Source: Giardia intestinalis
Taxonomy: Eukaryota
Length of the DNA stretch: 64,000 nucleotides
Reading direction: 5' to 3' (one strand)
Assembly: GCA_000002435.2 (NCBI GenBank)
Contig: CM018789.1
The notes beneath the pieces are model-generated. The model made no database searches. It saw only the letters and a program-made list of their open reading frames with translations, and was not told the origin of the DNA. This document shows positions 11,441 through 46,523 of this stretch, in pieces (position 1 is the first letter of the stretch; the number at the start of each line of letters is the position of its first letter). The position numbers were made by a program, and so were the translations under genes.

Positions 11441-11712
11441 TACACAGGCCTGTAATCACCAGAACAAAGGAGTAGACGGTTTTCTCTGTCGCTAAGCATG
11501 GCTATATCTCCTTCTTAGACTGCCAGCCTGTAAACTCTTAAATTGACTTTGTGGACCGAGGCATACACCGATGCGTGGACGCGCTGGAGCCGCTCTTACT
11601 GACACGTGACAGGATGGCTGTCACATGGTAGCAGGACACTTCTACATCAAGTGAGCCCAGCAATCCTCTGCACATGTGTACCTGAAAAGATATTTGTATG
11701 AAATCTCACAAA

Positions 11713-25218: not shown

Positions 25219-26106
25219 ATGTGTGCAATGGTTTTTCTAACAGCAAATGACTCCCGTACACGGTACACTGTGATGAAAACATTGCCAGACTCTGTTACTG
25301 TCTATACCGCCGATACACGGAAAAACGTTCTTCGACTAAATAAGTATGGAGGAGTGGAATTGACAACCTTTAATAACGTTGTAACAGCGATGGATACTAT
25401 AACATCCGATAGTGTCGTTACACTAGGATGCCACAACGGTTCACTAATTATATGGGACACACGCTCTAAGGCTCACTCTATCGTCGAAGGTCACAAGGCG
25501 GCGGTGACTGTTCTCTGCAAGCATCCAGTGTATGAAGTAATCTCTGGCTCTGATGATGGGCTTATCGCAATCTGGGATATGCGCAGCTTTCGCGTGCCCG
25601 TCACGACCCTTTCTCACAGCCACGCGGTGACGTCGCTGCACGTCGCCGACAGCGCGCTGGTTTCCACCAGCATCGACGGGTCTGTGAAGGTCTGGGATCT
25701 GATAAGGAACGCCCTTCTTCACACACACGCCCAGCTGGCCCCCTCGTATCCCATTTTCGACTCCGCGCTCACCTGCAAGCAAGTGCTCTACACCGTCGGA
25801 ACCGACGGGCTCAACCTCTTGGCCATGAGAGGCAGCCTGCAGCCGCTGAGGGTGCAGAGGGTTGAACAGTTGAACAGCCAGCTGTGTCACCAACCCCCGT
25901 TTACACGATTACTCAACGCCCGTTCTGCCCTCTTTCTTGCAAACCACTACACGATCATGAAGGTATCTGATCAGTTAGAGATTGTAGACCAGTATTGTAG
26001 AAGCACAATGCCCATCTCTGAAACAGAGCCGCCTCCCATTGTACAGCTGTATAGCGACCACCTTCTGTACTCCTTGGATGATAAGATAATGGTCAGGCAG
26101 ATATAG
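25219..26106 (+). CDS. WD40-repeat protein (295 aa). Its 3' part lies inside the left arm of the inverted duplication.
   Basis: WD signatures SLIIWDTRS, GLIAIWDMRS and GSVKVWDL. ATG start. Confidence 0.7.
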   Translation: MCAMVFLTANDSRTRYTVMKTLPDSVTVYTADTRKNVLRLNKYGGVELTTFNNVVTAMDTITSDSVVTLGCHNGSLIIWDTRSKAHSIVEGHKAAVTVLCKHPVYEVISGSDDGLIAIWDMRSFRVPVTTLSHSHAVTSLHVADSALVSTSIDGSVKVWDLIRNALLHTHAQLAPSYPIFDSALTCKQVLYTVGTDGLNLLAMRGSLQPLRVQRVEQLNSQLCHQPPFTRLLNARSALFLANHYTIMKVSDQLEIVDQYCRSTMPISETEPPPIVQLYSDHLLYSLDDKIMVRQI

Positions 26107-26124
26107 GCCCGCGGACTCTCTGCT

Positions 26125-27543
26125 TTACTTCGACTGGAGGCTTGCTTGAAACGTTCGAGCGTCATGTAATTGTTGGACAGTACTCTTCCGAACAATCTTG
26201 TCCTGCCATCGACTAGCTGACTCGTTTCTAGAATCAATTGGAAGATTGTCGAGTACCGTGCCTCGTCGAAGGAGGTCTTTGCGAGAGTATTCCAAGATGT
26301 CTAGCTGGCTGACATCAGCATCATTCTCCGTGCTATTAAGAATGACATTTTCTGCGTTTGACGTAGCCAGTTGCTGTACTGCAACCTTTTTAAGACTAGG
26401 TTCAGAGGACAGTATGAGCTCTGACAGGGTACATGCATCTGGCTTCTCAGCAGAATTCTTCTTATCGCCGTGCTCACTTGCATGACTGGATTTGTTTGCG
26501 ACTAGCTTTTCGAAGAACCAAACTTCTCTGCCCCCGGAATCAAGAATGCAATTAGTTGCTTTCTTATAGCATAAAAGCCACTCCGAAAAGAGTCTGTGAT
26601 CATCCAGAACAGCATAGGCCTCCTCACATAGCCTTCTGATCATCGGGATGAGTGGGCACTTGGTCTCGATAATAGAGACATTCTTTTCGGCAAGACTTCT
26701 CCACTTGTTACTCAAGTTGTGGAATCGAGGGGTTTCTCGCACGGTGTCATGAACCCAATGGATAAGCTCTTCAAACACATAGACGCTTGGGGTGAAAGGG
26801 TGAATAAGAAGTCGGTGCATGGCCTCTGCTCGTAGGTAATTCCCTACTCCGTTGAACAATTCCTGAGACAAAAGAAGCCGGCATATGGGTTGTGAAAATA
26901 TCGACTTGGGTGGCACAATGAAAGACCCGTCAAGACCTATAGGAATATGTGACAGTTTGGACAGTATCTTGGACACATAGTCTAGGTACTGTGCCACAGG
27001 ATCAGGGGACCGTGCATGGTCGAAGTCTCCTACTCGCCAGTACATGGTCTCTGGCCGTGGCGAGCATACTGCTAACACAGCATCAGATGCCTCAAACAAG
27101 AGATGTGCGTTAGACTTCAAAGCTTCCTCTGGGGTTAAGAAGGTGTTGATACAGCCTGCTAATCCCAGGCCAATCACGATACTGGTTGGTATGGTAAGCG
27201 CCACAGCGTGATCTGAGTGTTCCCAGGGGCGGCTTAAAGCGGTTGTTTTGCACAAATCATAGGGTGTCTCTGAGGTGTCAGATGTATTTCTTTTCAGACG
27301 CACAAAAATACTCTTTGCCTCATTCCTAGGTGGATCAGCTGCCCGAGCCAGGTCAACTCGGAGCTGCTTGCCTCGAGATTCGCACCTTATGGTAAATGCT
27401 ACTTTTATGGAATCATCAAGGAACAAAGGTGGGAGGGCCTTATACACACACGCCCTCGAAGTAGAGACGTTAGTAAAGAGAGTGTGCTCTGCCTCAAACG
27501 TTATGCGTTCTGCGAAGGCTCGAACCTCAGGATGCTCTGGCAT
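26125..27543 (-). CDS. Fpg/Nei (NEIL)-family bifunctional DNA glycosylase/AP-lyase with an H2TH motif
   Basis: After the initiator Met the N-terminus reads PEHPEV (catalytic Pro2-Glu3, matching PELPEV in Fpg). A conserved RGKQL Lys sits about 59 residues in. H2TH reads LLLSQELFNGVGNYLRAEAMHRLLIHPFTPS, matching LLDQ..[23 protein letters not shown]. The track start at 27558 is TTG; the ATG at 27543 puts Pro at position 2. Confidence 0.75.
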   Translation of the reverse strand: MPEHPEVRAFAERITFEAEHTLFTNVSTSRACVYKALPPLFLDDSIKVAFTIRCESRGKQLRVDLARAADPPRNEAKSIFVRLKRNTSDTSETPYDLCKTTALSRPWEHSDHAVALTIPTSIVIGLGLAGCINTFLTPEEALKSNAHLLFEASDAVLAVCSPRPETMYWRVGDFDHARSPDPVAQYLDYVSKILSKLSHIPIGLDGSFIVPPKSIFSQPICRLLLSQELFNGVGNYLRAEAMHRLLIHPFTPSVYVFEELIHWVHDTVRETPRFHNLSNKWRSLAEKNVSIIETKCPLIPMIRRLCEEAYAVLDDHRLFSEWLLCYKKATNCILDSGGREVWFFEKLVANKSSHASEHGDKKNSAEKPDACTLSELILSSEPSLKKVAVQQLATSNAENVILNSTENDADVSQLDILEYSRKDLLRRGTVLDNLPIDSRNESASRWQDKIVRKSTVQQLHDARTFQASLQSK

Positions 27544-27547
27544 AAAA

Positions 27548-28072
27548 ATGGATAGCAACCCCCTCCTGGACTTTTTTGCTGCCCCACCACCTACCTCTCA
27601 GGAACTAGAAACACAACACTGGCCTTTTGGTGATGTGCACGCGCTCTTTAGGCATTTCAACGAGGCTTTTTTCGACAATTGCCTGAGAGATGTTGTGGTT
27701 CATTGGAGCAATAGGCTAACACGTTCTGCAGGTCTATGCAAATACAGAGGGACGCGAACAGAAGAGCATAGTCCTATTGTAATTATCCTATCTGCACCTC
27801 TACTCCAATATCGTTCACAACACGACCTGCTCGACGTGCTGGTGCATGAGATGATCCACGCCTACCTTTTCAGACTGAAGGTGTTCGAGCGAGTGCATCA
27901 CGGGCCCGTCTGGCACGCACAAGCGCACCGAATTAACCAGGCCGCTGGACTTACAATCCGTGCCTGCCACAACTACTACCAAGAGGTAAGATACATTGCG
28001 CACCAACGGGCTCTGAAGCGGGTTCCAGTCATTGATCTTAGCAATAGCACTATTGATCTCACCGATGATTAG
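27548..28072 (+). CDS. SprT-like zinc metalloprotease (Spartan/Wss1-type DNA-protein crosslink protease domain)
   Basis: LFRHFNEAFFDNCLRDVVVHWSNRLTRSAGLCKY...LLDVLVHEMIHAYLF...HGPVWHAQAHRINQAAGLTIRACHNYYQEV. This matches Spartan LFVQFNDQFFWGQLEAVEVKWSVRMTLCAGICSY...TLLHEMIHAYLF...HGPEF..HMHRIN. HEMIH zinc site. The track GTG start at 27275 was replaced by the ATG at 27548 (MDSNPLL). Confidence 0.8.
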   Translation: MDSNPLLDFFAAPPPTSQELETQHWPFGDVHALFRHFNEAFFDNCLRDVVVHWSNRLTRSAGLCKYRGTRTEEHSPIVIILSAPLLQYRSQHDLLDVLVHEMIHAYLFRLKVFERVHHGPVWHAQAHRINQAAGLTIRACHNYYQEVRYIAHQRALKRVPVIDLSNSTIDLTDD

Positions 28073-31000
28073 AGGTCTTGGGCGTGACGCCAACCACGAA
28101 GCTGTGAAGGTGTGCCACAACATGAATCTTCATGCATGGTTCCACGTGACTGCCTGTATATGATAAAGGCGATTTGCAGCTCTGCCTCTAAGTGTGTTAT
28201 GCTTTCAAATAACTTATACGTCATTCTTAGCTCCAAGTCGTGAATGCATGCTTCTTGAAATAATGTAAGAGCTTATTTTGCTTGCCAATTATCCTCCTCA
28301 TTCTTAGTGAGTCTGTGCACACCGCTTCTTATATATGAATTGCTTCTACACACCAGTATCACTGGTAGATTCTAGGGTACACAACGTGTTTCTGTACATG
28401 CTGGGACATCTTTCAACATTGCAGGTGGTACATACCATCCTGCATAGCCATCAGGGAATCTATTATTAGCCTATTATTAAAGTACTGTAAGAGCAATCAT
28501 GGACGGATATTAGTACTTTTCACGTAGGCCCTTAAAGTCGCCAGCTGTATACACGCTCCTCGGGGTTGTGGCCATCCTCCCTTGGGCTTCGTGCTTTTTG
28601 TAAGCATAGAGTGAAAGCACTTGCATTGGCAAACTAGGCAAACGCCAGATATGTCATGCTATGAACACGTTGAACGACGATGAATATCTTACAGAATAGG
28701 AAGATCTGCATCCAGCTATCGGTAACATAGACTTTCATAAGACATGTGAGCCGCACAGAAATACCACTGTAAATGTACTGAAAATCCACATGAGCATCGT
28801 CACATGGAGATAGAAAGCCATCTGAATGAACACTTTTGCGGGCTGCTTTGGTGCTTTGAAGAGACGCGAATGACTTTACGTCACTGTATGTTACAAACCC
28901 AACTGACCTTTCATGCCTTCCATGATGTAGTCTAGTCAGAACGAGCTGATTGTAGTCTTCCGATATATGCTTAAGGGCGCAAGGTGTAGATCAAATAGAT
29001 TGCTTTATTGCCTTCGAGAAAAGGACGGGCCTTGCTTTGCCAATACATAGATATGTGATAATAGACCAGGCAATCAGCAGTAAATGGAATACACGGCTAA
29101 TAGCTGCAAGACGCAGTCGTAAGCCTGGTTCTGCATGGGCAGCATCCAAATAGGGCCGTTGTCATGTCGGCTCTTTGCAGACGCATTGTGTACAGCAGTT
29201 ACGAGCTGCGCAACGGAAGGTCATAGGGGGTGAGGTTGTCTACTGCACCACGCCGCATAGAGGACAAATCAAGACCGACAGCACGAGAAAAGCGACAAGA
29301 ACAGTCGCTTTGTGTGCCTACTGGCAAGGACTTCGTGACAAACCCATATGGCGCAGAGCCTGGGATTGGCCTTGTCCACGTTCATGTTAGGGAGCGTGGG
29401 CCTTCAAGAGTTAGCCAGAAGTTGCACCAATTCTCAACTGGTACATGCCTTTATCCAGTGATGTCCAACGCGATGCTTTACATCCGTGCAAGCTTTGAGA
29501 TACTAATTTCACCGACTCGTTGTGACTCAAGGCGTCCAACTCGTTATAATATTGAGGCAAGGATTGAACTGAGTAACTGATTGCTAGGGAAATTATGCCA
29601 TCACTATCACAACTAGCTTGAATCGTGAGAGAAGTTTGTACTGACAAGATTAAGCGGCCCAACCAGCACATGAGAAGAGTCTGTCCCTTATGATACTTTG
29701 ACCACCAAAGGGAAGGTAATGGATCCACGGTCATTGTTTCTGATGTAGCAAGTAGCGCCTGCAATAGATGGCTAGATCATAAATGATATTATGGTTATGG
29801 CGTGTCACGCAATTGAGCACGAGTAAGATTGCAGACTGGCCCAACCTTAACTAGAGATCCAAACAAACAGACAACCAGCAGAGTAAAGATTGTAAGAGCA
29901 ACTAAACGTCAAATCTGTAAACGGCTTAAGTTTGGTGAGTGGCATGAAAAATGGTCACTGAGCCTATCGTTTTTAGCTAATGTGGAACTTTTAATCTTGT
30001 AAGGCTAAGGTTGTTTTATCTCTTGTTGCTGACAACAAGCCCCTGCATAAGCTACGTAATAATCATCTATACTACTGCCGCGCTACTGTTCTCTGGATAA
30101 GTATCGATTGACTAAAGACAGACCCGTTGTCATAGATACATTGTGAGAAGGCTGATACTAGAAGCTTGTCTGTCGAGTTTGCATGTTCTATTTATGGAGA
30201 CTTCCGATGGCAACCTTTATGTAGAGATATGGATGGTCTAGGAAACTGAGCCATTAGCGCTTCAGTCGCCGTCTTACAAAAAACAGATTGCAAAAAGTAG
30301 ATGCGAAGTAGGATATTTGGTAGTTGCTGATTAGTGGGCATGATACCCAAGAATCCATGGAGCCGTTACCCAATTTTCCAAATTACAATAAGCAGCTTGC
30401 TTTGTTGACCCGGGACTGGTATCAAAAGATGTCTGGTAATCACAGAATGCTTTTAAAGTGATCTTGTGTGGCAAAATGCTTATGACGTGAATGAAATGAG
30501 CTGTAGGTTAAAGCAGGCAGCTTCCTATACTCATAAAATCGTCCAGCAGAGTGTCCTACAGCCTTGTACGGTTATACTTGACCATCTATTATTTCCCAGC
30601 ATAAGCACAACAAGTCCTCATTACAAAAGTGGGCGCTTTATTCTTCATTCAATACCAGATTGCATATTATGCCAGACAATTATCATGCAACGGCTGATAA
30701 AGATTTATATGACCTGGCAGGACATACGAGTGCCGTTAACATTAAGGTGCGCGTAGATAGTGCATATTTGACCCAGCAAAGATAAAGTCAACCAGAGTCA
30801 GAAAAGGGGAAAGAGAAAATGGAAGCCACCATACTCCACAGACTTCTATCATGTTTTATACGCGTGGATGCTGAATTAACCAGGTGCTCAGACGCAAGGT
30901 ATTTGCTGTAAGACACTTAGGAGCTGTAGCTTGACGCATACAGGTGACATACTATAGTTATGCTGAATAACGCGGAGGTATCGATGAGTGGACGCACAAG

Positions 31001-32592
31001 TATTGAAGGCGATGAGCCACAGGGGCTTCTATGAACTGCTCACGGTGAGTGGAAGTACCGTAGATACCTTCACTACCAGGCACGCTTAACCCAATCTAGA
31101 ATTAGTATAAAGCATAGAGTTGGACGGACCTAGGTTGCGTCTAGTAAAACGTAGGACACTTCTAAGAGCTCAACTTAAGGATGGCGAGGCGGCCCTGTAA
31201 CCCTGCATAGCTGGCCTTGCATCCAATAAAGACTAGGGGCTGAGTGGCACATATGTTCGTCATCCAGCATGGCGAATAGCCCGTGGAGCGGCAAGATCAA
31301 TCTTTCCTAGACGAGCAACACGTAGTGAGTGTTCGACCAGTACCAATGGGCAAGGGTTAATTCTCGCCATAACTGACGCCCGGACGGCAGAAGCCAATAG
31401 GAAAGACAGCTCTTACCGGAGCGGTGCTGGGGATGCTCTGCAAGTCAGAGCCAGAAGGGCCTGGTAGCCATACTGGTGCCTGCTGTCGTCGGGCAACCCT
31501 GTTAAAGAAGCAGCGGCTCCTCGAGCGGGGCAGCTTAGGGGCCCACTACGTTCTCCTATTCTGCAGCGCATATTGTCTACTGGCAGGGAGCTGATGTCTT
31601 TCGTGGTTGCATGGTCCTGCTCACACCAGAGACAGAGCCAGACGACGGAGAGTAGGAGACTGACTCCCAGTTGAGATCTGCTTATTCCAGGCCCAACCAC
31701 ACCGCAGTATGCATCCACATCGATCTACGGTAGGTGGCGGGCAGCTTGCAGGGTGGAATTGGCAGCCTGGGCGAATTAAGGGCGGCGGATGTATTGCTGC
31801 CTCATTCCATCAATAGCATGGTTGGCTTGCGAGATGGAAGCAGTGGTTGCGGCGAAGGCACGTGAGGCGTCCAGATGAAGCGGACTATACAGATCGCTTA
31901 ACAGCATTAAAAGTTGAAATGGTTACACTGCCCGCTTGCAAAGGTACATGGTTCGGCCTGCGAACACTGCGTGTTTACTGACGCAGACTGGCCTATTGGC
32001 AGTGCCTAACTGTCCTTGCCGGTGGCATTGCACAGCGAGTGCCCTGGAGGCGCCATCATGACTACGCTTTTCTGCTCTTTTGCTTACAGAGGCCATTACT
32101 GTCTGTCCGCTCATGACACCATAAACACACAAGGTCAATCCCCCTGGCACTTTACTCAGAGGTGCGCCGGCTCTTTCGGAGAAGCGCTTCTCTGTGTAGC
32201 TGTCTAGTGAACAGACCAGACACGGTGGTGCTATCAGCCAAGCCACTGCTGGGCAGAGCACACGGCCTGTATCTGCTCGTCTCGTGCTCTAGCCAGCCAC
32301 CCCGCGTGAGCATCTGGAGGCGTGCCTGGACATATGCGTGGTATTCTGCGGTGTGCACGGTCTCGTGTCCGCACAGTAGGCCAGCCAGGGAGCGTGTGCA
32401 GGCACGTCATGTGGCACCACGTCCTTTGTGGAATGCTGGAGGACCACACAGGCGAGGGTCTACCATCAAGATACGGACACGTTGCTTCCTGACATGGAAG
32501 GTCAATGAGGCTATCCAGATGGCCCAGCCACGGTAGAAGGCTAGCAGATGTGATCGTATTGGCCACCAGCACTGTCACTAATACCAACATGC
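28073..32592. other. 4.5 kb ORF-free, moderately AT-rich stretch (no ORF above about 117 codons in any frame)
   Basis: Stop codons are dense in all six frames. This contrasts with the near-zero intergenic spacing elsewhere in the window. Confidence 0.7.
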
Positions 32593-35400
32593 ATGATTAA
32601 TAGATCTAGCAGGGCCGCAATGTTGCTACTAGTTCTTTGCTTTTTGATGAGCGCTCTCGCTGCACAATGCAAGGGGCACCAGCACTCCAACTGCGCAACC
32701 GGCTGGTGCAGGGCGGTCCGTGGCGTCGAGGTCTGTATGAGGTGCAAAGCGGGCCACGTGCTGATCGACGGAGTGTGCGCTGATAACTCTGTTGTCTACG
32801 GCGCGGGGTCCGCCTGCCAGATTCTAAACTGCAAGCAGTGTAACGCGGACAACACGCAGTGCGAGCAGTGCGAGGACGGATACACGCCGAGCGCCGGGAA
32901 TACCCAGTGCAACGAGGACGCCGCGTCCGCCTGCCAGATTCTAAACTGCAAGCAGTGTAACGCGGACAACACGCAGTGCGAGCAGTGCGAGGACGGATAC
33001 ACGCCGAGCGCCGGGAATACCCAGTGCAACGAGGACGCCGCGTCCGCCTGCCAGATTCTAAACTGCAAGCAGTGTAACGCGGACAACACGCAGTGCGAGC
33101 AGTGCGAGGACGGATACACGCCGAGCGCCGGGAATACCCAGTGCAACGAGGACGCCGCGTCCGCCTGCCAGATTCTAAACTGCAAGCAGTGTAACGCGGA
33201 CAACACGCAGTGCGAGCAGTGCGAGGACGGATACACGCCGAGCGCCGGGAATACCCAGTGCAACGAGGACGCCGCGTCCGCCTGCCAGATTCTAAACTGC
33301 AAGCAGTGTAACGCGGACAACACGCAGTGCGAGCAGTGCGAGGACGGATACACGCCGAGCGCCGGGAATACCCAGTGCAACGAGGACGCCGCGTCCGCCT
33401 GCCAGATTCTAAACTGCAAGCAGTGTAACGCGGACAACACGCAGTGCGAGCAGTGCGAGGACGGATACACGCCGAGCGCCGGGAATACCCAGTGCAACGA
33501 GGACGCCGCGTCCGCCTGCCAGATTCTAAACTGCAAGCAGTGTAACGCGGACAACACGCAGTGCGAGCAGTGCGAGGACGGATACACGCCGAGCGCCGGG
33601 AATACCCAGTGCAACGAGGACGCCGCGTCCGCCTGCCAGATTCTAAACTGCAAGCAGTGTAACGCGGACAACACGCAGTGCGAGCAGTGCGAGGACGGAT
33701 ACACGCCGAGCGCCGGGAATACCCAGTGCAACGAGGACGCCGCGTCCGCCTGCCAGATTCTAAACTGCAAGCAGTGTAACGCGGACAACACGCAGTGCGA
33801 GCAGTGCGAGGACGGATACACGCCGAGCGCCGGGAATACCCAGTGCAACGAGGACGCCGCGTCCGCCTGCCAGATTCTAAACTGCAAGCAGTGTAACGCG
33901 GACAACACGCAGTGCGAGCAGTGCGAGGACGGATACACGCCGAGCGCCGGGAATACCCAGTGCAACGAGGACGCCGCGTCCGCCTGCCAGATTCTAAACT
34001 GCAAGCAGTGTAACGCGGACAACACGCAGTGCGAGCAGTGCGAGGACGGATACACGCCGAGCGCCGGGAATACCCAGTGCAACGAGGACGCCGCGTCCGC
34101 CTGCCAGATTCTAAACTGCAAGCAGTGTAACGCGGACAACACGCAGTGCGAGCAGTGCGAGGACGGATACACGCCGAGCGCCGGGAATACCCAGTGCAAC
34201 GAGGACGCCGCGTCCGCCTGCCAGATTCTAAACTGCAAGCAGTGTAACGCGGACAACACGCAGTGCGAGCAGTGCGAGGACGGATACACGCCGAGCGCCG
34301 GGAATACCCAGTGCAACGAGGACGCCGCGTCCGCCTGCCAGATTCTAAACTGCAAGCAGTGTAACGCGGACAACACGCAGTGCGAGCAGTGCGAGGACGG
34401 ATACACGCCGAGCGCCGGGAATACCCAGTGCAACGAGAACCCAGAAGCGCGGTGCAATACTCCCAACTGTAAGACCTGTGACAACCCCAAAACAGGCAAT
34501 GAAATCTGCACTAAATGTAATGATGGCGACTACCTCACCCCTACAAACCAGTGCGCACATGACTGCACAGCCATCAGCGGATACTACGGAGATACTGACA
34601 AGAAGTGTAAGCCATGCAGCCCTGAGTGCGCTGAGTGCGTTGGGCCAGCCAACAATCAGTGTAGTGCTTGTCCTGCAGGCAAGGCATTAACATATGGAGG
34701 TGGTGATCCTGCCCAAGGGGGCACCTGCGGGGATGCGTGTACGGCGGACAAGAACGGATGTAAGGTCTGTGGGGCAAGGATCGGCGGGACAGACTACTGC
34801 TCCCAGTGCTCAGTGGGTACTCAGGCTCCTCTGAACGGGGTCTGTACGGCCAACGCGCGTGCTCAGTTCTGCACACAAGTTACCAGTGGATCCTGCACGT
34901 CTTGTAGTGGGGGCTACTTCCTCAAGAATGGTGGCTGTTACCAGGCAGATAGACAGCCAGGCAAACAGATATGTACACTAGCTGATAGCAATGGTGGATG
35001 TCAGGCGTGTGCCAATGGTCTTCCTCCTAGTTCTTCTGACGTATGCCCCTCGTGTCATTTCACCTGCAAGACATGCTCGACCGCAGACATTGCAAATACT
35101 TGTACAACGTGTGCAACTGGGTACTACATGGTCGGATCAGGGCCAAACACATGTATTTCGTGTGAAAGTGACAGTGGAAGTGTCAAGGGAGTTGCTGGCT
35201 GCATGAGCTGCGCTCCTCCATCTAGCAATACTGGCTCCGTTCTCTGCTACCTCATGAACGGTGACAGTGCCGGCGGGAGCACGAATAAGAGCGGCCTTAG
35301 CACAGGTGCCATCGCTGGCATCTCTGTGGCTGTCATCGTCGTCGTCGGGGGACTCGTCGGCTTCCTCTGCTGGTGGTTCATCTGCAGGGGCAAAGCGTAG
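32593..35400 (+). CDS. VSP: Variant-specific surface protein (VSP), 935 aa, with 14 tandem 39-aa repeats
   Basis: Signal peptide MINRSSRAAMLLLVLCFLMSALAAQ. Numerous CXXC motifs. C-terminal TM helix AIAGISVAVIVVVGGLVGFLCWWF followed by the invariant CRGKA-stop. Confidence 0.95.
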   Translation: MINRSSRAAMLLLVLCFLMSALAAQCKGHQHSNCATGWCRAVRGVEVCMRCKAGHVLIDGVCADNSVVYGAGSACQILNCKQCNADNTQCEQCEDGYTPSAGNTQCNEDAASACQILNCKQCNADNTQCEQCEDGYTPSAGNTQCNEDAASACQILNCKQCNADNTQCEQCEDGYTPSAGNTQCNEDAASACQILNCKQCNADNTQCEQCEDGYTPSAGNTQCNEDAASACQILNCKQCNADNTQCEQCEDGYTPSAGNTQCNEDAASACQILNCKQCNADNTQCEQCEDGYTPSAGNTQCNEDAASACQILNCKQCNADNTQCEQCEDGYTPSAGNTQCNEDAASACQILNCKQCNADNTQCEQCEDGYTPSAGNTQCNEDAASACQILNCKQCNADNTQCEQCEDGYTPSAGNTQCNEDAASACQILNCKQCNADNTQCEQCEDGYTPSAGNTQCNEDAASACQILNCKQCNADNTQCEQCEDGYTPSAGNTQCNEDAASACQILNCKQCNADNTQCEQCEDGYTPSAGNTQCNEDAASACQILNCKQCNADNTQCEQCEDGYTPSAGNTQCNEDAASACQILNCKQCNADNTQCEQCEDGYTPSAGNTQCNENPEARCNTPNCKTCDNPKTGNEICTKCNDGDYLTPTNQCAHDCTAISGYYGDTDKKCKPCSPECAECVGPANNQCSACPAGKALTYGGGDPAQGGTCGDACTADKNGCKVCGARIGGTDYCSQCSVGTQAPLNGVCTANARAQFCTQVTSGSCTSCSGGYFLKNGGCYQADRQPGKQICTLADSNGGCQACANGLPPSSSDVCPSCHFTCKTCSTADIANTCTTCATGYYMVGSGPNTCISCESDSGSVKGVAGCMSCAPPSSNTGSVLCYLMNGDSAGGSTNKSGLSTGAIAGISVAVIVVVGGLVGFLCWWFICRGKA
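32809..34446 (+). repeat. Perfect tandem array of 14 x 117 bp inside the VSP CDS. Each unit encodes ACQILNCKQCNADNTQCEQCEDGYTPSAGNTQCNEDAAS.
   Basis: Unit boundaries were counted directly: tccgcctgccag recurs every 117 nt from 32809 to 34330. Units are identical at the nucleotide level. Confidence 0.95.
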
Positions 35401-35404
35401 ATGT

Positions 35405-35419
35405 ACTTAGATAGTAAAC
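35405..35419 (+). promoter_or_regulatory. Extended VSP polyadenylation signal ACTTAGATAGTAAAC, 5 nt after the VSP stop
   Basis: Matches the conserved VSP 3' motif ACT-Py-AG-Pu-TAGT-Pu-AA-Py, which contains the general Giardia AGTAAAC signal. Confidence 0.7.
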
Positions 35420-35946
35420 GCGTCACTGTATAAAGCATATTATACTGTGATGGGGCCCTGCCTGTGGGAGCGTCCAGAAATCCCACGAGTAAGTCTCGCC
35501 CACGTCTTGGCCAATCTGAGAGCGAGAACTGGTTGTAGACAGCAAGCAGGGACTCCTCTTTATTAGTGTATCTAAAACTTGGCACCTTCTCCGGTCGCTC
35601 TGTGGGTGTGTGCTCAGTCTGGGTGTGCACGTCGGCCGTTTCGGGGTTCAGGCCTTCTCGCAGACTCTCTGGTCCACCAGTGGCGCCTCTCCTTGGTCTT
35701 CCTTCACGGTGAGTGAAGCCCGGGCCGCTGTCTTTTTTAGATGCCCCCGTCTGTCAGGGGCTGCCATCGGGCTCTCCGCTGGCTGGGCCCCTCGGTGTCC
35801 GTCCGGCTGTGGTTCTGGGTCAGCGCTTCCACAGTCGCGGTCACTTGGGTCTCAGTGGGCCGGCTGGTGGGTGGGGCGGGGGTATGGGCGGTGAGGACTG
35901 GTGGGACCGGGTGGGGGCTGAGATTGGTGTCCGTATGTGCTCCTGG

Positions 35947-37551
35947 GTTCGGTGGGCCATTGCGGCGGTGGGTGATCCCCTCTCTGTTTGCCAAGGTGGT
36001 TGTGTCTGATCCCCAGCCTTCGTTGCACTCCCGAGACACAGGCACCGACGATCGTGTCGTGTCCCCTGACTGAGCGCCTCCCTTGGCCCCTGCATGCCTC
36101 GGGCAGTACTGCTGCTCTGGTTGACTGGTACATGAGGGATGAGGCAGGCCATCGCAGCCTCTCCTGCTACTCGCTGATGCTCTGTGCGGGTCTGCTGGGC
36201 CCCTGGCATGCCCTGTCCAGTGCCTCGACGTAGTTCACCTCGGCCAGCAGGGGTGTGGATGAGCCGGTGGATGGGATGGGTTCTCTCAGGCCTCTAGTGT
36301 GATGGCCCAGAAGACTGGCACGGTGGGGCACTGGTGGCTGCACTGTCCCCGTGGTCAGCTGTGCTGCTCCTGGTGGGTCCTTGTCATGGAGCGCTGTGTG
36401 TTGTTCATAGGCAGAGGTGAGCCTCCTTGGTTTCAAGATGCTCTACCATGCAGAGAGGAGCACGCTGAGGGTCACCCATACCTCACATCTGCTGTGCCCG
36501 TTCGGGAGTTCCCGGTGTGGTCCACCAGGACCTTGACACCTCTCGTGGCTCTGATGACCCCTCGAGGAGAGCCGGGGTGTCCTATGCCAGGGGAGGCGTG
36601 CACCCTCCTGCATGAGCTGGGACCCACTGCACTGCCCTCAAGGAGGTCTGCTATGAGAGGCAGTGGGATGATTGACGGCCCCAGAGTGCGGTGGAGGGTG
36701 CTCGTGGTCATCTCTTGTGATCGGGCATCACTCTGATGGCCAGCTCTGTGCCTGTGTGGTGCTCAGAGGCCACCTGTCTGCCTCATCGCCTGCTGGACAG
36801 CCGGGTCTCTTGTGGTGTCCGAAGGCCTCCTCACTCCTCTGGCTGCTGCCCCCTCGGGTCATCAATGAAGACAGTCGAGGCCAGCGGAGTCTTCGGTGAG
36901 TCTGGTGCCTGCCTGGGTGTCATGGGGGCTGGCAGCTGTCAGGGCTCTGCCACTGCTCACCTGCCTGGAGTGTGCCTCCCTTGGACCTACTGTGCTGCGT
37001 GAGTCCTCTGGCTTCCTATCAGGCCCTGACTGTGAGGGTGACCCCACCTGGTCCTCTGATGCCCCTGTGGATGAGCATAGCAATGTGTCTGATTGAGGAT
37101 CTCTGGTGCCCGTGTCTGTTGCTGCCTCTCGGGTGCTCGGGTAGTTGCCTGGCACTCTCGTATGGGGGCACAGTCAGCGTGTCCCGAGCAGACTCCAGTC
37201 CTCTCTGGGTCCACACAGTCTGTTCGTGTGTGGATGATCCTCCTGCACTCAGGTCCATCTGTGCACACTATCACTCAGCCTCGAGAGCAGGCCAGTGCAG
37301 TCGCCAGGGTTGCTGTCAGAGGGAGTCGTCTGCCACTACATCGCTCGAGCAGACTCTACAGATCAGGCTGGCTGCTGTGCACCCTCATGGCAGGGCTGCC
37401 TGACTCCCCTTGGTCATCCTCTCTGTCCCGGTGTGCACGGCTCCTGAGGGTTGTCTGGGTGGAGGCACTCACAGACCACGAGCACACAGAGGGGTGAGTC
37501 ATAGATGGACAGCCATCAGTCACCACAGCTGCGATCACCCCAGTCTATCGA
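35947..37551. other. Unique 1.6 kb spacer between the inverted-repeat arms. GC-rich (about 60%) and strongly A-depleted on the + strand. Only short overlapping ORFs of low-complexity C/W/R/G/P-rich translation.
   Basis: No mirror copy exists. The composition continues that of the inner end of the left arm and flips abruptly at about 37552. Confidence 0.7.
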
Positions 37552-38073
37552 GGGACCAGGGGCACATACAGACACCCACCACCCGGTCCCACCAGTCCTC
37601 ACCGCCCATACCCCCGCCCCACCCACCAGCCGGCCCACTGAGACCCAAGTGACCGCGACTGTGGAAGCGCTGACCCAGAACCACAGCCGGACGGACACCG
37701 AGGGGCCCAGCCAGCGGAGAGCCCGATGGCAGCCCCTGACAGACGGGGGCATCTAAAAAAGACAGCGGCCCGGGCTTCACTCACCGTGAAGGAAGACCAA
37801 GGAGAGGCGCCACTGGTGGACCAGAGAGTCTGCGAGAAGGCCTGAACCCCGAAACGGCCGACGTGCACACCCAGACTGAGCACACACCCACAGAGCGACC
37901 GGAGAAGGTGCCAAGTTTTAGATACACTAATAAAGAGGAGTCCCTGCTTGCTGTCTACAACCAGTTCTCGCTCTCAGATTGGCCAAGACGTGGGCGAGAC
38001 TTACTCGTGGGATTTCTGGACGCTCCCACAGGCAGGGCCCCATCACAGTATAATATGCTTTATACAGTGACGC

Positions 38074-38088
38074 GTTTACTATCTAAGT
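38074..38088 (-). promoter_or_regulatory. Mirror copy of the VSP polyadenylation signal (ACTTAGATAGTAAAC on the - strand)
   Basis: Reverse complement of 35405-35419 at the symmetric position (sum 73493). Confidence 0.7.
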
Positions 38089-38092
38089 ACAT

Positions 38093-39379
38093 CTACGCTT
38101 TGCCCCTGCAGATGAACCACCAGCAGAGGAAGCCGACGAGTCCCCCGACGACGACGATGACAGCCACAGAGATGCCAGCGATGGCACCTGTGCTAAGGCC
38201 GCTCTTATTCGTGCTCCCGCCGGCACTGTCACCGTTCATGAGGTAGCAGAGAACGGAGCCAGTATTGCTAGATGGAGGAGCGCAGCTCATGCAGCCAGCA
38301 ACTCCCTTGACACTTCCACTGTCACTTTCACACGAAATACATGTGTTTGGCCCTGATCCGACCATGTAGTACCCAGTTGCACACGTTGTACAAGTATTTG
38401 CAATGTCTGCGGTCGAGCATGTCTTGCAGGTGAAATGACACGAGGGGCATACGTCAGAAGAACTAGGAGGAAGACCATTGGCACACGCCTGACATCCACC
38501 ATTGCTATCAGCTAGTGTACATATCTGTTTGCCTGGCTGTCTATCTGCCTGGTAACAGCCACCATTCTTGAGGAAGTAGCCCCCACTACAAGACGTGCAG
38601 GATCCACTGGTAACTTGTGTGCAGAACTGAGCACGCGCGTTGGCCGTACAGACCCCGTTCAGAGGAGCCTGAGTACCCACTGAGCACTGGGAGCAGTAGT
38701 CTGTCCCGCCGATCCTTGCCCCACAGACCTTACATCCGTTCTTGTCCGCCGTACACGCATCCCCGCAGGTGCCCCCTTGGGCAGGATCACCACCTCCATA
38801 TGTTAATGCCTTGCCTGCAGGACAAGCACTACACTGATTGTTGGCTGGCCCAACGCACTCAGCGCACTCAGGGCTGCATGGCTTACACTTCTTGTCAGTA
38901 TCTCCGTAGTATCCGCTGATGGCTGTGCAGTCATGTGCGCACTGGTTTGTAGGGGTGAGGTAGTCGCCATCATTACATTTAGTGCAGATTTCATTGCCTG
39001 TTTTGGGGTTGTCACAGGTCTTACAGTTGGGAGTATTGCACCGCGCTTCTGGGTTCTCGTTGCACTGGGTATTCCCGGCGCTCGGCGTGTATCCGTCCTC
39101 GCACTGCTCGCACTGCGTGTTGTCCGCGTTACACTGCTTGCAGTTTAGAATCTGGCAGGCGGACCCCGCGCCGTAGACAACAGAGTTATCAGCGCACACT
39201 CCGTCGATCAGCACGTGGCCCGCTTTGCACCTCATACAGACCTCGACGCCACGGACCGCCCTGCACCAGCCGGTTGCGCAGTTGGAGTGCTGGTGCCCCT
39301 TGCATTGTGCAGCGAGAGCGCTCATCAAAAAGCAAAGAACTAGTAGCAACATTGCGGCCCTGCTAGATCTATTAATCAT
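38093..39379 (-). CDS. VSP: VSP, second copy, 428 aa, with a single 39-aa repeat unit. Otherwise identical to the 935-aa copy.
   Basis: Same signal peptide, same post-repeat Cys-rich region, TM helix and CRGKA tail. The length difference of 1521 nt equals 13 x 117. Confidence 0.92.
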   Translation of the reverse strand: MINRSSRAAMLLLVLCFLMSALAAQCKGHQHSNCATGWCRAVRGVEVCMRCKAGHVLIDGVCADNSVVYGAGSACQILNCKQCNADNTQCEQCEDGYTPSAGNTQCNENPEARCNTPNCKTCDNPKTGNEICTKCNDGDYLTPTNQCAHDCTAISGYYGDTDKKCKPCSPECAECVGPANNQCSACPAGKALTYGGGDPAQGGTCGDACTADKNGCKVCGARIGGTDYCSQCSVGTQAPLNGVCTANARAQFCTQVTSGSCTSCSGGYFLKNGGCYQADRQPGKQICTLADSNGGCQACANGLPPSSSDVCPSCHFTCKTCSTADIANTCTTCATGYYMVGSGPNTCISCESDSGSVKGVAGCMSCAPPSSNTGSVLCYLMNGDSAGGSTNKSGLSTGAIAGISVAVIVVVGGLVGFLCWWFICRGKA

Positions 39380-42300
39380 GCATGTTGGTATTAGTGACAG
39401 TGCTGGTGGCCAATACGATCACATCTGCTAGCCTTCTACCGTGGCTGGGCCATCTGGATAGCCTCATTGACCTTCCATGTCAGGAAGCAACGTGTCCGTA
39501 TCTTGATGGTAGACCCTCGCCTGTGTGGTCCTCCAGCATTCCACAAAGGACGTGGTGCCACATGACGTGCCTGCACACGCTCCCTGGCTGGCCTACTGTG
39601 CGGACACGAGACCGTGCACACCGCAGAATACCACGCATATGTCCAGGCACGCCTCCAGATGCTCACGCGGGGTGGCTGGCTAGAGCACGAGACGAGCAGA
39701 TACAGGCCGTGTGCTCTGCCCAGCAGTGGCTTGGCTGATAGCACCACCGTGTCTGGTCTGTTCACTAGACAGCTACACAGAGAAGCGCTTCTCCGAAAGA
39801 GCCGGCGCACCTCTGAGTAAAGTGCCAGGGGGATTGACCTTGTGTGTTTATGGTGTCATGAGCGGACAGACAGTAATGGCCTCTGTAAGCAAAAGAGCAG
39901 AAAAGCGTAGTCATGATGGCGCCTCCAGGGCACTCGCTGTGCAATGCCACCGGCAAGGACAGTTAGGCACTGCCAATAGGCCAGTCTGCGTCAGTAAACA
40001 CGCAGTGTTCGCAGGCCGAACCATGTACCTTTGCAAGCGGGCAGTGTAACCATTTCAACTTTTAATGCTGTTAAGCGATCTGTATAGTCCGCTTCATCTG
40101 GACGCCTCACGTGCCTTCGCCGCAACCACTGCTTCCATCTCGCAAGCCAACCATGCTATTGATGGAATGAGGCAGCAATACATCCGCCGCCCTTAATTCG
40201 CCCAGGCTGCCAATTCCACCCTGCAAGCTGCCCGCCACCTACCGTAGATCGATGTGGATGCATACTGCGGTGTGGTTGGGCCTGGAATAAGCAGATCTCA
40301 ACTGGGAGTCAGTCTCCTACTCTCCGTCGTCTGGCTCTGTCTCTGGTGTGAGCAGGACCATGCAACCACGAAAGACATCAGCTCCCTGCCAGTAGACAAT
40401 ATGCGCTGCAGAATAGGAGAACGTAGTGGGCCCCTAAGCTGCCCCGCTCGAGGAGCCGCTGCTTCTTTAACAGGGTTGCCCGACGACAGCAGGCACCAGT
40501 ATGGCTACCAGGCCCTTCTGGCTCTGACTTGCAGAGCATCCCCAGCACCGCTCCGGTAAGAGCTGTCTTTCCTATTGGCTTCTGCCGTCCGGGCGTCAGT
40601 TATGGCGAGAATTAACCCTTGCCCATTGGTACTGGTCGAACACTCACTACGTGTTGCTCGTCTAGGAAAGATTGATCTTGCCGCTCCACGGGCTATTCGC
40701 CATGCTGGATGACGAACATATGTGCCACTCAGCCCCTAGTCTTTATTGGATGCAAGGCCAGCTATGCAGGGTTACAGGGCCGCCTCGCCATCCTTAAGTT
40801 GAGCTCTTAGAAGTGTCCTACGTTTTACTAGACGCAACCTAGGTCCGTCCAACTCTATGCTTTATACTAATTCTAGATTGGGTTAAGCGTGCCTGGTAGT
40901 GAAGGTATCTACGGTACTTCCACTCACCGTGAGCAGTTCATAGAAGCCCCTGTGGCTCATCGCCTTCAATACTTGTGCGTTCACTCATCGATACCTCCGC
41001 GTTATTCAGCATAACTATAGTATGTCACCTGTATGCGTCAAGCTACAGCTCCTAAGTGTCTTACAGCAAATACCTTGCGTCTGAGCACCTGGTTAATTCA
41101 GCATCCACGCGTATAAAACATGATAGAAGTCTGTGGAGTATGGTGGCTTCCATTTTCTCTTTCCCCTTTTCTGACTCTGGTTGACTTTATCTTTGCTGGG
41201 TCAAATATGCACTATCTACGCGCACCTTAATGTTAACGGCACTCGTATGTCCTGCCAGGTCATATAAATCTTTATCAGCCGTTGCATGATAATTGTCTGG
41301 CATAATATGCAATCTGGTATTGAATGAAGAATAAAGCGCCCACTTTTGTAATGAGGACTTGTTGTGCTTATGCTGGGAAATAATAGATGGTCAAGTATAA
41401 CCGTACAAGGCTGTAGGACACTCTGCTGGACGATTTTATGAGTATAGGAAGCTGCCTGCTTTAACCTACAGCTCATTTCATTCACGTCATAAGCATTTTG
41501 CCACACAAGATCACTTTAAAAGCATTCTGTGATTACCAGACATCTTTTGATACCAGTCCCGGGTCAACAAAGCAAGCTGCTTATTGTAATTTGGAAAATT
41601 GGGTAACGGCTCCATGGATTCTTGGGTATCATGCCCACTAATCAGCAACTACCAAATATCCTACTTCGCATCTACTTTTTGCAATCTGTTTTTTGTAAGA
41701 CGGCGACTGAAGCGCTAATGGCTCAGTTTCCTAGACCATCCATATCTCTACATAAAGGTTGCCATCGGAAGTCTCCATAAATAGAACATGCAAACTCGAC
41801 AGACAAGCTTCTAGTATCAGCCTTCTCACAATGTATCTATGACAACGGGTCTGTCTTTAGTCAATCGATACTTATCCAGAGAACAGTAGCGCGGCAGTAG
41901 TATAGATGATTATTACGTAGCTTATGCAGGGGCTTGTTGTCAGCAACAAGAGATAAAACAACCTTAGCCTTACAAGATTAAAAGTTCCACATTAGCTAAA
42001 AACGATAGGCTCAGTGACCATTTTTCATGCCACTCACCAAACTTAAGCCGTTTACAGATTTGACGTTTAGTTGCTCTTACAATCTTTACTCTGCTGGTTG
42101 TCTGTTTGTTTGGATCTCTAGTTAAGGTTGGGCCAGTCTGCAATCTTACTCGTGCTCAATTGCGTGACACGCCATAACCATAATATCATTTATGATCTAG
42201 CCATCTATTGCAGGCGCTACTTGCTACATCAGAAACAATGACCGTGGATCCATTACCTTCCCTTTGGTGGTCAAAGTATCATAAGGGACAGACTCTTCTC

Positions 42301-43899: not shown

Positions 43900-44424
43900 C
43901 TAATCATCGGTGAGATCAATAGTGCTATTGCTAAGATCAATGACTGGAACCCGCTTCAGAGCCCGTTGGTGCGCAATGTATCTTACCTCTTGGTAGTAGT
44001 TGTGGCAGGCACGGATTGTAAGTCCAGCGGCCTGGTTAATTCGGTGCGCTTGTGCGTGCCAGACGGGCCCGTGATGCACTCGCTCGAACACCTTCAGTCT
44101 GAAAAGGTAGGCGTGGATCATCTCATGCACCAGCACGTCGAGCAGGTCGTGTTGTGAACGATATTGGAGTAGAGGTGCAGATAGGATAATTACAATAGGA
44201 CTATGCTCTTCTGTTCGCGTCCCTCTGTATTTGCATAGACCTGCAGAACGTGTTAGCCTATTGCTCCAATGAACCACAACATCTCTCAGGCAATTGTCGA
44301 AAAAAGCCTCGTTGAAATGCCTAAAGAGCGCGTGCACATCACCAAAAGGCCAGTGTTGTGTTTCTAGTTCCTGAGAGGTAGGTGGTGGGGCAGCAAAAAA
44401 GTCCAGGAGGGGGTTGCTATCCAT
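43900..44424 (-). CDS. SprT-like zinc metalloprotease, second copy
   Basis: Identical translation to 27548..28072. ATG at 44422-44424 on the - strand. Confidence 0.8.
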   Translation of the reverse strand: MDSNPLLDFFAAPPPTSQELETQHWPFGDVHALFRHFNEAFFDNCLRDVVVHWSNRLTRSAGLCKYRGTRTEEHSPIVIILSAPLLQYRSQHDLLDVLVHEMIHAYLFRLKVFERVHHGPVWHAQAHRINQAAGLTIRACHNYYQEVRYIAHQRALKRVPVIDLSNSTIDLTDD

Positions 44425-44428
44425 TTTT

Positions 44429-45847: not shown

Positions 45848-45865
45848 AGCAGAGAGTCCGCGGGC

Positions 45866-46369: not shown

Positions 46370-46523
46370 GGCGGGGTGGGGCGGAAAAGCGTGCACCATG
46401 CGGGAGTCGGACCCGCCCCAACAGCTTGGAAGGCTGTCATGCTAGCCGATACACCAATGGTGCCCGGCGCGCCGCATAAACAGCGGATAAATTAGTATGT
46501 GCTTTGAATGGTCTGGTTCAGAT

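What the first reader, a model, noticed from the sequence alone, without database searches (positions are those of the whole stretch)
28073..32592. 4.5 kb gene desert between the repair gene pair and the VSP, duplicated at 39380-43899
Everywhere else in the window genes are separated by 0-500 bp. Here 4.5 kb has stops in all frames, higher AT content, and no recognisable protein, rRNA or tRNA features. It could be a decayed pseudogene or retroelement remnant. It could also be a non-coding RNA locus, or a regulatory or heterochromatic buffer upstream of the VSP, relevant to VSP silencing.
Basis: seen in the sequence. Interest (0 to 1): 0.55.

Follow-up and report, generated by a model that had tools for sequence, protein, structure and literature searches.

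The report
Neutral non-coding spacer beside Giardia VSP
The 4.5 kb gene-free stretch is real, but it is the long, fast-evolving non-coding flank that Giardia surface-antigen (VSP) genes are already known to carry, copied here as part of a large palindrome, so it is an ordinary case of a known pattern.

Summary
The window is Giardia intestinalis assemblage A (WB-like). The ORF-free stretch is real. It runs 28073-32619, because the VSP starts at the CAATGTT initiator ATG at 32620. Its reverse-complement copy is at 39353-43899 and differs at one base.

Nothing suggests a gene or structured RNA:
- ORF lengths and codon usage match shuffled sequence.
- Six-frame Pfam, a 5.8-billion-protein search, Rfam, tRNA, CXXC-motif and RNA-folding tests are all negative.
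- It evolves at or above the synonymous rate (2.1-4.3% against 1.8% at third codon positions between two A isolates; 27.9% against 18-30% between A and E). Substitutions show no 3-base periodicity.
- Nothing aligns with assemblage B, yet B also has a 4.9 kb ORF-free stretch between the same SprT-like gene and a VSP.

The desert is one segment of the arms of a ~20.8 kb palindrome around a tail-to-tail VSP pair. The arms appear to be kept near-identical by gene conversion.

Published work already reports that regions around VSPs are gene-poor, GC-rich close to the gene and highly variable. Verdict: a real but known feature, most likely a neutrally evolving spacer. A buffer role that depends only on length is not excluded. 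Interest is low.

The parts
28073..31007 (.). Desert, distal AT-rich part (43.7% GC). Non-coding. Shared with a 2%-diverged A isolate, and its first 610 nt with assemblage E.
   Evidence: Divergence from L017 is 2.08% with 0 indels. Divergence from P15 (L016) is 27.9% over the first 610 nt.
31008..32619 (.). Desert, VSP-proximal GC-rich part (54.8% GC). Non-coding and more variable. Homology with isolate L017 ends at 31854.
   Evidence: Divergence is 4.26% over 31008-31854. The last 187 nt of L017 have no match. No CXXC excess.
39353..43899 (.). Reverse-complement copy of the desert in the right palindrome arm.
   Evidence: one mismatch, at the position pairing with 30991.
25602..32916 (.). 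Left arm of the inverted repeat, up to the VSP repeat array. It starts inside the WD40 gene (25219-26106).
39056..46370 (.). Right arm of the inverted repeat. It ends in a truncated WD40 copy (ORF 45866-46399, minus strand).
27548..28072 (+). SprT-like gene (GL50803_115695, 174 aa), the last syntenic core gene before the desert. Second copy at 43900-44424 (minus strand).
   Evidence: Pfam SprT-like E=2.8e-25. 100% match to WB proteins KAE8301638.1 and KAE8301641.1.
26125..27543 (-). NEIL/Fpg-like glycosylase gene (weak H2TH match). Second copy at 44429-45847 (plus strand).
32620..35400 (+). VSP with about 14 copies of a 117-nt (39-aa) tandem repeat. It ends in CRGKA.
   Evidence: Pfam VSP E=1e-100; repeats; translation.
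38093..39352 (-). Convergent second VSP copy (419 aa from the initiator ATG). It has exactly 13 fewer repeats than the long copy.
35401..38092 (.). 2692-nt ORF-free spacer between the tail-to-tail VSPs, 60.8% GC. The outer ~514 nt on each side still belong to the inverted repeat; the unique centre is about 35915-37578.
46391..46463 (-). tRNA-Gly(TCC), 20 nt outside the right edge of the palindrome.
   Evidence: The same tRNA is in L017.

Best explanation
The stretch is the long non-coding 5' flank of a VSP gene. It lies at the point where a conserved block of core genes (PUF, WD40, NEIL-like, SprT-like) gives way to a variable VSP locus. Over essentially its whole length it carries no sequence-specific function: it is not a gene, not a recognisable dead gene or transposon, and not a structured RNA. 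It drifts at the neutral rate or faster.

It has two parts. The first is an older AT-rich 2.9 kb; at least its first 610 nt are shared with assemblage E. The second is a GC-rich, more variable 1.6 kb next to the VSP; in another A isolate it is replaced from about 765 nt upstream of the ATG.

The second copy exists because the whole segment was duplicated in inverted orientation around a tail-to-tail VSP pair. That segment runs from the 3' half of WD40 through NEIL, SprT and the desert to the VSP. The two arms are then kept almost identical by arm-to-arm gene conversion.

- **Shown:** non-coding statistics, neutral-or-faster divergence, the palindrome structure, and the presence of a similar ORF-free stretch at the same position in assemblage B.
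- **Inferred:** gene conversion between the arms, and that the DNA persists because deletion is weak or recombination keeps regenerating such flanks, rather than because its sequence is needed.
For: - **Non-coding.** The longest stop-free run is 139 codons against 131 +/- 27 in shuffles. The codon-usage score, best of six frames, is -0.088; the shuffled desert gives -0.099 and real CDS +0.110.
- **No homology.** Six-frame Pfam, tblastn with window proteins, the 5.8-billion-protein search, Rfam, tRNA scan and CXXC counts are all negative. Folding z-scores equal the controls.
- **Annotation.** The two WB SprT copies have accessions KAE8301638 and KAE8301641. That leaves room for only two proteins between them, the two VSPs, so no protein gene is annotated in either desert copy. 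This is an inference from the numbering.
- **Neutral or faster evolution.** Between two A isolates the desert diverges 2.08% (AT part) and 4.26% (GC part), against 1.82% at third codon positions and 0.7% at positions 1 and 2. Between A and E it diverges 27.9%, against 18-30% at third positions. Between two B isolates it diverges 3.60%, against 1.28%. Substitutions show no 3-base periodicity (p=0.73 and 0.59), whereas SprT gives p=8e-4 and NEIL p=1e-22. The longest ORF in the GC part changes frame and length between isolates (103 against 180 aa) through a 1-nt indel.
- **No A-B similarity** by blastn or tblastx outside the VSP.
- **Palindrome.**. The right-arm junction is already present in L017, an isolate 2% diverged from the window. 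Yet the arms differ at only 2 of about 7315 sites, which points to homogenisation.
- **Literature.** Regions around VSPs are gene-poor with higher allelic variation (PMC7000408). VSP intergenic regions have median 1280 and mean 2131 nt, against 79 and 392 genome-wide, and the 2 kb upstream averages 53.9% GC (10.1101/2022.03.07.483299). Tail-to-tail identical pairs lie 2.4-3.2 kb apart with 3' divergence at about 500 nt (PMC2996952). Here the figures are 2692 nt and about 514 nt.
Against: - Giardia is very compact (median intergenic distance 79 nt). Even so, an ORF-free stretch of about the same length (4.5 kb in A, 4.9 kb in B) sits between SprT and a VSP in both assemblages. That could mean the length or position is selected, even though the sequence is not.
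- Indels are scarce: 1 per 97 substitutions between the A isolates. That is compatible with a constraint on length, but the PUF-WD40 intergenic region looks similar.
- Transcription, small RNAs and chromatin could not be examined.
- Only 610 nt of the assemblage E orthologue was available.
- I could not compare the desert with the rest of the Giardia genome or with GilM/GilT/GilD DNA, so a low-copy non-coding repeat or a very decayed element is not excluded as its origin.
Confidence: 0.72

Rival explanations
1. Spacer or chromatin buffer that works by length. The sequence is free to drift, but several kilobases of gene-free DNA are kept between housekeeping genes and the VSP. This would stop VSP silencing or activation chromatin, or convergent and antisense VSP transcription, from spreading into SprT and NEIL.
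For: - ORF-free stretches of 4.5 kb in A and 4.9 kb in B sit at the same position with no sequence similarity.
- The genome is compact, yet VSP flanks are systematically long (10.1101/2022.03.07.483299; PMC7000408).
- Indels are few relative to substitutions.
Against: - No direct evidence exists.
- The VSP in B lies in the opposite orientation, with its tail towards the desert. The two stretches may therefore not be the same 'upstream region', or even homologous.
- Low indel rates are also seen in another intergenic region.
- Neutral persistence next to a recombining gene family explains the same facts.
Confidence: 0.13
2. Remnant of one or more dead genes or transposable elements (VSP, a cysteine-rich protein, NEK, an ankyrin protein, or a GilM/GilT/GilD-type retroelement) that has decayed beyond recognition. 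This concerns origin and is compatible with the region being neutral today.
For: - The bioRxiv preprint 10.1101/2022.03.07.483299 reports transposon relics (by CENSOR) and pseudogenes in flanks and spacers of duplicated VSP pairs.
- PMC7000408 finds reverse-transcriptase remnants between head-to-head pairs.
- The 54.8% GC of the VSP-proximal part is close to VSP-like composition.
Against: - Six-frame Pfam finds no RVT, VSP, kinase or ankyrin match at E<=0.27.
- None of the 44 stop-free segments matches any of 5.8 billion proteins.
- There is no CXXC excess, no residual codon bias, and no internal or in-window repeats.
Confidence: 0.1
3. Unannotated non-coding RNA locus (a long non-coding or sterile transcript, or a small-RNA source) involved in VSP control.
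For: This rests on prior knowledge, not on a test here. Giardia produces abundant antisense and sterile transcripts, and VSP expression is thought to involve RNA-based and epigenetic mechanisms. AT-rich stretches such as 28073-31007 can act as promoters in Giardia.
Against: - Rfam finds nothing in A, and nothing in the B desert or in L017 apart from the tRNA outside the desert.
- Folding z-scores are indistinguishable from coding controls: mean -0.08 and 0.01, and the minimum of -3.4 is matched in the controls.
- Divergence is neutral or faster throughout, with no conserved island in 400-500-nt windows.
- No similarity between A and B.
Confidence: 0.05

Closest known systems
Gene-poor, variable regions flanking Giardia VSP genes (Xu et al. 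2020, PMC7000408; bioRxiv 10.1101/2022.03.07.483299)
   Same: It lies directly upstream of a VSP with the PyAATGTT initiator. It is ORF-free and far longer than the genome's median intergenic distance. The proximal ~1.6 kb is GC-rich (54.8% against the reported mean of 53.9% for 2 kb upstream). Sequence variation is higher than in the neighbouring genes. It sits at a break in synteny between assemblages.
   Different: At 4547 nt it is about twice the reported mean VSP intergenic length. Its distal 2.9 kb is AT-rich, not GC-rich. It lies inside the duplicated arms, whereas the 2010 survey could not follow 5' flank identity for tail-to-tail pairs.
Identical inverted (tail-to-tail) vsp gene pairs such as vsp1267 (Adam et al. 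2010, PMC2996952)
   Same: Two convergent copies of one VSP lie 2692 nt apart. Their 3' flanks are identical for about 514 nt and then diverge abruptly. Both values fall in the published ranges (2393-3222 nt and 318-559 nt).
   Different: The two ORFs are not identical: they differ by 13 copies of the 39-aa repeat. The identity extends about 7 kb upstream of the VSPs, through the desert and into two and a half non-VSP genes, giving a ~20.8 kb palindrome.
Large palindromes homogenised by arm-to-arm gene conversion (for example the human Y-chromosome ampliconic palindromes; comparison from general knowledge)
   Same: Long arms of near-perfect identity (99.97%) surround a short unique spacer. The duplication is older than the arm divergence suggests.
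   Different: The scale is about 10 kb arms rather than up to megabases. The evidence for conversion here is indirect, resting on one diverged isolate that carries the same arm junction.

Membership tests
VSP-flanking gene-poor region (Giardia) | Directly adjoins a bona fide VSP gene | tested here: met
   Pfam VSP E=1e-100, CRGKA tail, CAATGTT initiator at the ATG at 32620.
VSP-flanking gene-poor region (Giardia) | No protein-coding gene over a length far above the genome's typical intergenic distance | tested here: met
   4547 nt, against a genome median of 79 and mean of 392 nt (10.1101/2022.03.07.483299). ORF statistics, codon usage and homology searches are all negative.
VSP-flanking gene-poor region (Giardia) | Raised GC close to the VSP | tested here: met
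   31008-32619 is 54.8% GC. The distal 2.9 kb is 43.7%.
VSP-flanking gene-poor region (Giardia) | Higher sequence variation than the surrounding genes | tested here: met
   The desert diverges 2.1-4.3% against 0.8-1.3% for most neighbouring CDS (A isolates). In B it diverges 3.6% against 1.28% at third codon positions.
Inverted identical vsp pair (tail-to-tail) | Two convergent copies of the same VSP, 2-4 kb apart | tested here: met
   32620-35400 (+) and 38093-39352 (-), 2692 nt apart.
Inverted identical vsp pair (tail-to-tail) | Identical ORFs | tested here: not met
   The sequences are identical except for repeat number: ORFs of 935 and 428 aa, differing by 13 x 39 aa.
Inverted identical vsp pair (tail-to-tail) | 3' flanks identical up to an abrupt divergence a few hundred nt from the stop codon | tested here: met
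   Identity runs to about 35914 and 37579, roughly 514 nt past each stop.
Non-LTR retrotransposon remnant (GilM/GilT/GilD) | Residual reverse-transcriptase or endonuclease coding similarity | tested here: not met
   Six-frame Pfam finds no RVT or any other family at E<=0.27. The protein database search is negative.
Non-LTR retrotransposon remnant (GilM/GilT/GilD) | DNA similarity to the element consensus, or multiple genomic copies | not testable with these tools
   No Giardia genome or repeat library could be searched. Within the window the only other copy is the palindrome arm.
Decayed protein-coding pseudogene | Detectable similarity to a protein family, or residual codon structure | tested here: not met
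   no similarity; codon usage equals shuffled sequence; no 3-base periodicity of substitutions; no CXXC excess.
Structured non-coding RNA gene | Match to a known RNA family, or folding stability and conservation above background | tested here: not met
   Rfam finds nothing at E<=1. Mean folding z-score is about 0, as in the controls. No conservation between A and B.
Structured non-coding RNA gene | A stable transcript | not testable with these tools
   No expression data were available.

The most novel reading that the evidence does not exclude
The desert is kept for its length and position, not its sequence. It would be a gene-free buffer of about 4.5-5 kb that insulates housekeeping genes from the chromatin or RNA-based switching machinery of the adjacent VSP. 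It would have been held at this site since before assemblages A and B split, while its sequence turned over completely. Its inclusion in a gene-converting palindrome would keep both VSP copies in an identical regulatory context.
Probability: 0.12. Interest if true: 0.6.

Novelty: already known. Interest (0 to 1): 0.2.

Why it matters
As it stands, this is a well-characterised single example of a known genome-wide pattern in Giardia: long, gene-poor, variable VSP flanks and inverted VSP pairs.

Its use is as a clean test locus. The desert is bounded by a conserved core gene on one side and an initiator-bearing VSP on the other. It is present in two near-identical copies. It has a counterpart at the same position in assemblage B. 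Anyone who wants to ask whether VSP flanks act as chromatin buffers, or are simply neutral debris of recombination, could delete or shorten this spacer and read out VSP switching and SprT/NEIL expression.

One point adds a little to the published description of these pairs. The palindrome arms extend 7 kb beyond the VSP into ordinary genes, and they look homogenised by gene conversion rather than recently duplicated.

Tried and rejected
- **Six-frame Pfam by DNA reference.** Redone with X-masked translations: nothing found.
- **Decayed paralogue of a neighbouring gene or VSP.** tblastn with 32 window proteins gave only chance-level hits, best E=0.014. Rejected.
- **Internal repeats or other copies in the window.** None apart from the palindrome arm.
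- **Any protein relative.** All 44 stop-free segments of 45 aa or more, concatenated, gave no hit. No positive control was run for this X-joined query.
- **Exhaustive HMMER search with concatenated segments.** I judged a single random-looking ORF not worth the shared compute.
- **Contig look-ups.** The 118-aa ATG ORF next to the VSP (32237-32590, minus strand) and the 419-aa VSP are not on record.
- **JGI metagenome contigs.** An exact 32-mer from the GC-rich part gave no hits.
- **Contig break at window 31008.** Two Logan contigs (L001, L002) end there. I first suspected a repeat boundary. The one base that differs between the arms (30991) lies 17 nt away, so an assembly-graph branch is the simpler explanation. 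This was not proven.
- **Transition bias.** The 89:8 transition:transversion ratio in the desert looked unusual, but flanking genes show about 7:1, so it is a general Giardia feature.
- **DUF842 hit.** A sub-threshold match in a B-desert ORF (21 bits against a cutoff of 25.1). The ORF is Ala/Arg/Pro-rich inside a 62% GC island. Judged to be chance.
- **VSP gene identifier.** I could not assign a GL50803 identifier to the VSP pair from Table 2 of PMC7000408. The closest entry by size is 419 aa with a 2637-nt distance, which does not match the 2692 nt and unequal sizes seen here.
Full report
**Identity of the window.** The ORFs flanking the finding are a WD40 protein, a weak H2TH/NEIL-like glycosylase and an SprT-like protease on one side, and a Giardia variant-specific surface protein (Pfam VSP, E=1e-100) on the other. 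The 174-aa SprT-like protein is 100% identical to the Giardia intestinalis WB protein GL50803_115695. That protein has two WB accessions, KAE8301638.1 and KAE8301641.1. The window is therefore G. intestinalis assemblage A, WB-like.

- In 28073-32592 the longest stop-free run over six frames is 139 codons. Shuffles of the same bases give 131 +/- 27. Each frame has 62-82 stops.
- Among all 4.5 kb windows of the 64 kb, only this stretch and its copy have a maximum below 160 codons.
- The VSP most likely starts at 32620, where the ATG sits in the VSP initiator motif CAATGTT (sequence; motif from PMC2996952). The desert is therefore 28073-32619, or 4547 nt.
- GC content is 47.6% overall, the same as coding sequence in the window (47.5%). 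It splits into an AT-rich 2.9 kb (43.7%) and a GC-rich 1.6 kb next to the VSP (54.8%).
- The copy at 39353-43899 is a reverse complement and differs at one base, the one pairing with 30991.

**It is not a gene, a recognisable dead gene, or a known RNA.**
- X-masked six-frame translations hit no Pfam family better than E=0.27, so there is no reverse transcriptase, VSP, kinase or ankyrin signal.
- tblastn with 32 window proteins gives only chance-level hits, and there are no internal repeats.
- All 44 stop-free segments of 45 aa or more, searched together against 5.8 billion proteins, give nothing at E<=1e-3. That collection holds Giardia annotations, including an older one.
- The two WB SprT accessions leave room for only two proteins between them, which are the two VSPs. 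The reference annotation therefore has no protein gene in either desert copy (an inference).
- A codon-usage score trained on half the window's genes gives +0.110 for held-out genes, -0.088 for the desert (best of six frames) and -0.099 for the shuffled desert.
- CXXC motifs, the VSP hallmark, are at shuffle level.
- Rfam finds nothing at E<=1 and there is no tRNA in the desert.
- Folding z-scores of 120-nt windows average -0.08 and 0.01 on the two strands. Their extremes are no stronger than in two coding controls.

**Comparative evidence.** I used the SprT-like protein as an anchor to fetch orthologous loci.

*Other near-identical A isolates.* Independent short-read contigs reproduce 26610-31008 at 99.9% identity or more, so at least that part of the sequence is not an assembly artefact.

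*A 2%-diverged A isolate (L017, a metagenome scaffold).*
- It carries the right-arm configuration: Sld5, Rrp15, tRNA, truncated WD40, NEIL, SprT, desert. It covers the desert up to window-equivalent 31854, after which its last 187 nt match nothing in the window.
- Divergence is 0.7% at codon positions 1 and 2 and 1.82% at position 3 of the flanking genes. It is 2.08% in the AT-rich part of the desert and 4.26% in the GC-rich part. There is a single 1-nt indel.
- That indel changes the frame and length of the longest local ORF, from 103 to 180 aa.

*Assemblage E (P15, L016).* The contig ends 603 nt past SprT. That part aligns with the desert at 27.9% divergence, within the 18-30% seen at third codon positions of the neighbouring genes.

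*Periodicity.* Substitutions in the desert show no 3-base periodicity (p=0.73 for A against E; p=0.59 between the A isolates). SprT and NEIL do show it (p=8e-4 and 1e-22).

*Assemblage B.*
- In L022 (JXTI01000072), SprT is followed by 4915 nt with no ORF beyond chance (142 codons against 124 +/- 22). A VSP on the opposite strand follows. The stretch recurs in two further B assemblies (L023, L027).
- The B stretch shares no blastn or tblastx similarity with the A desert; only the VSPs match.
- Between two B isolates the desert diverges 3.60%, against 1.28% at third codon positions.

The desert therefore evolves at or above the synonymous rate in every comparison, and no conserved island was found. 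The strong transition bias (89:8) is also seen in the flanking genes, so it is not specific to the desert.

**Larger structure.**
- The desert is one segment of a ~20.8 kb palindrome spanning 25602-46370. The left arm starts inside the WD40 gene and carries NEIL, SprT, the desert and the VSP. The right arm ends in a truncated WD40 copy, 20 nt from a tRNA-Gly.
- The two convergent VSPs are 2692 nt apart. Their 3' flanks are identical for about 514 nt, and there is a unique centre of about 1.65 kb. These values match the tail-to-tail identical vsp pairs described by Adam et al. 2010 (PMC2996952).
- The two VSP copies differ by exactly 13 of the 39-aa repeats.
- The right-arm junction already exists in the 2%-diverged isolate L017. 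Yet the WB arms differ at only 2 of about 7315 sites. The arms are therefore most likely homogenised by gene conversion rather than merely young. This is an inference.

**Comparison with what is known.**
- Xu et al. 2020 state that regions around VSPs tend to be gene-poor and carry more allelic variation (PMC7000408).
- The 2022 bioRxiv preprint 10.1101/2022.03.07.483299 quantifies this. VSP intergenic regions have median 1280 and mean 2131 nt, against 79 and 392 genome-wide. The 2 kb upstream of VSPs averages 53.9% GC. Neighbouring 'hypothetical' genes are often not real. Transposon relics are claimed in some flanks.
- This desert fits that description in every tested respect. It is longer than average and has an AT-rich distal part.

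The phenomenon is therefore already known, and this is one instance of it.

**Mechanism.** My best reading (about 0.72) is a neutrally evolving non-coding VSP flank at a synteny break. It was duplicated passively with the palindrome arm and is kept identical between the arms by conversion.

The main alternative that the data do not exclude (about 0.13) is a function that depends on length only, as a chromatin or transcription buffer between housekeeping genes and the VSP. The similar ORF-free length at the same position in A and B, in a very compact genome, suggests this. The opposite VSP orientation in B weakens the argument.

An origin from dead genes or transposons (about 0.1) and an unannotated RNA locus (about 0.05) have no support from any test I could run. 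Transcription, chromatin state and genome-wide repeat status could not be tested with the available tools. The decisive experiments are listed separately.

Noticed in passing
window 25602-46370: The finding is a segment of a ~20.8 kb palindrome. Its arms carry the 3' half of a WD40 gene, the NEIL-like and SprT-like genes, the desert and a VSP. The arms differ at only 2 of ~7315 sites, although the same right-arm junction exists in an isolate 2% diverged (L017). This suggests arm-to-arm gene conversion rather than a very recent duplication.
   Followed up: partly
window 32620-35400 (+) and 38093-39352 (-): The two convergent VSP copies are identical except for repeat number. The ORFs are 935 and 428 aa, a difference of exactly 13 copies of a 117-nt (39-aa) tandem repeat. 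The long antisense ORF 32796-34511 (571 aa) lies entirely inside the repeat array, so it is probably an artefact of the repeats.
   Followed up: partly
window 46391-46463 (-): A tRNA-Gly(TCC) gene lies 20 nt outside the right edge of the palindrome, next to the truncated WD40 copy (45866-46399). The same tRNA is present at the junction in L017.
   Followed up: no
window 35401-38092: A second ORF-free stretch of 2692 nt and 60.8% GC lies between the tail-to-tail VSPs. Its unique centre is about 35915-37578. It has no similarity to the VSP and no CXXC excess.
   Followed up: partly
L017 7847-8033 (window-equivalent 31854 onward): In a 2%-diverged A isolate, homology to the window stops about 765 nt upstream of the VSP start. 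The last 187 nt of the scaffold match nothing in the window. The VSP-proximal part of the desert, and perhaps the VSP itself, may be replaced in that isolate, or the scaffold end may be misassembled.
   Followed up: no
L008-L016, L019-L021, L025-L028: Most short-read contigs of assemblage B and E isolates end about 30-1200 nt after the SprT stop codon; one (L027) runs about 2.9 kb further. Two A contigs end at window 31008, 17 nt from the one base that differs between the arms. The region downstream of SprT is evidently hard to assemble, through heterozygosity, duplication or variability.
   Followed up: no
L022 10607-15521: Assemblage B has its own 4.9 kb ORF-free stretch between SprT and a VSP on the opposite strand. 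It contains a 62% GC island at about 11107-11607. An ORF there (11269-11535) gives a sub-threshold DUF842 hit (21 bits against a cutoff of 25.1), judged to be chance.
   Followed up: partly
window 50735-51960: The only other gap above 700 nt between large ORFs holds two small ATG ORFs, 50983-51255 (90 aa) and 51388-51795 (135 aa). They look like real small genes, so this gap is not a second desert.
   Followed up: no
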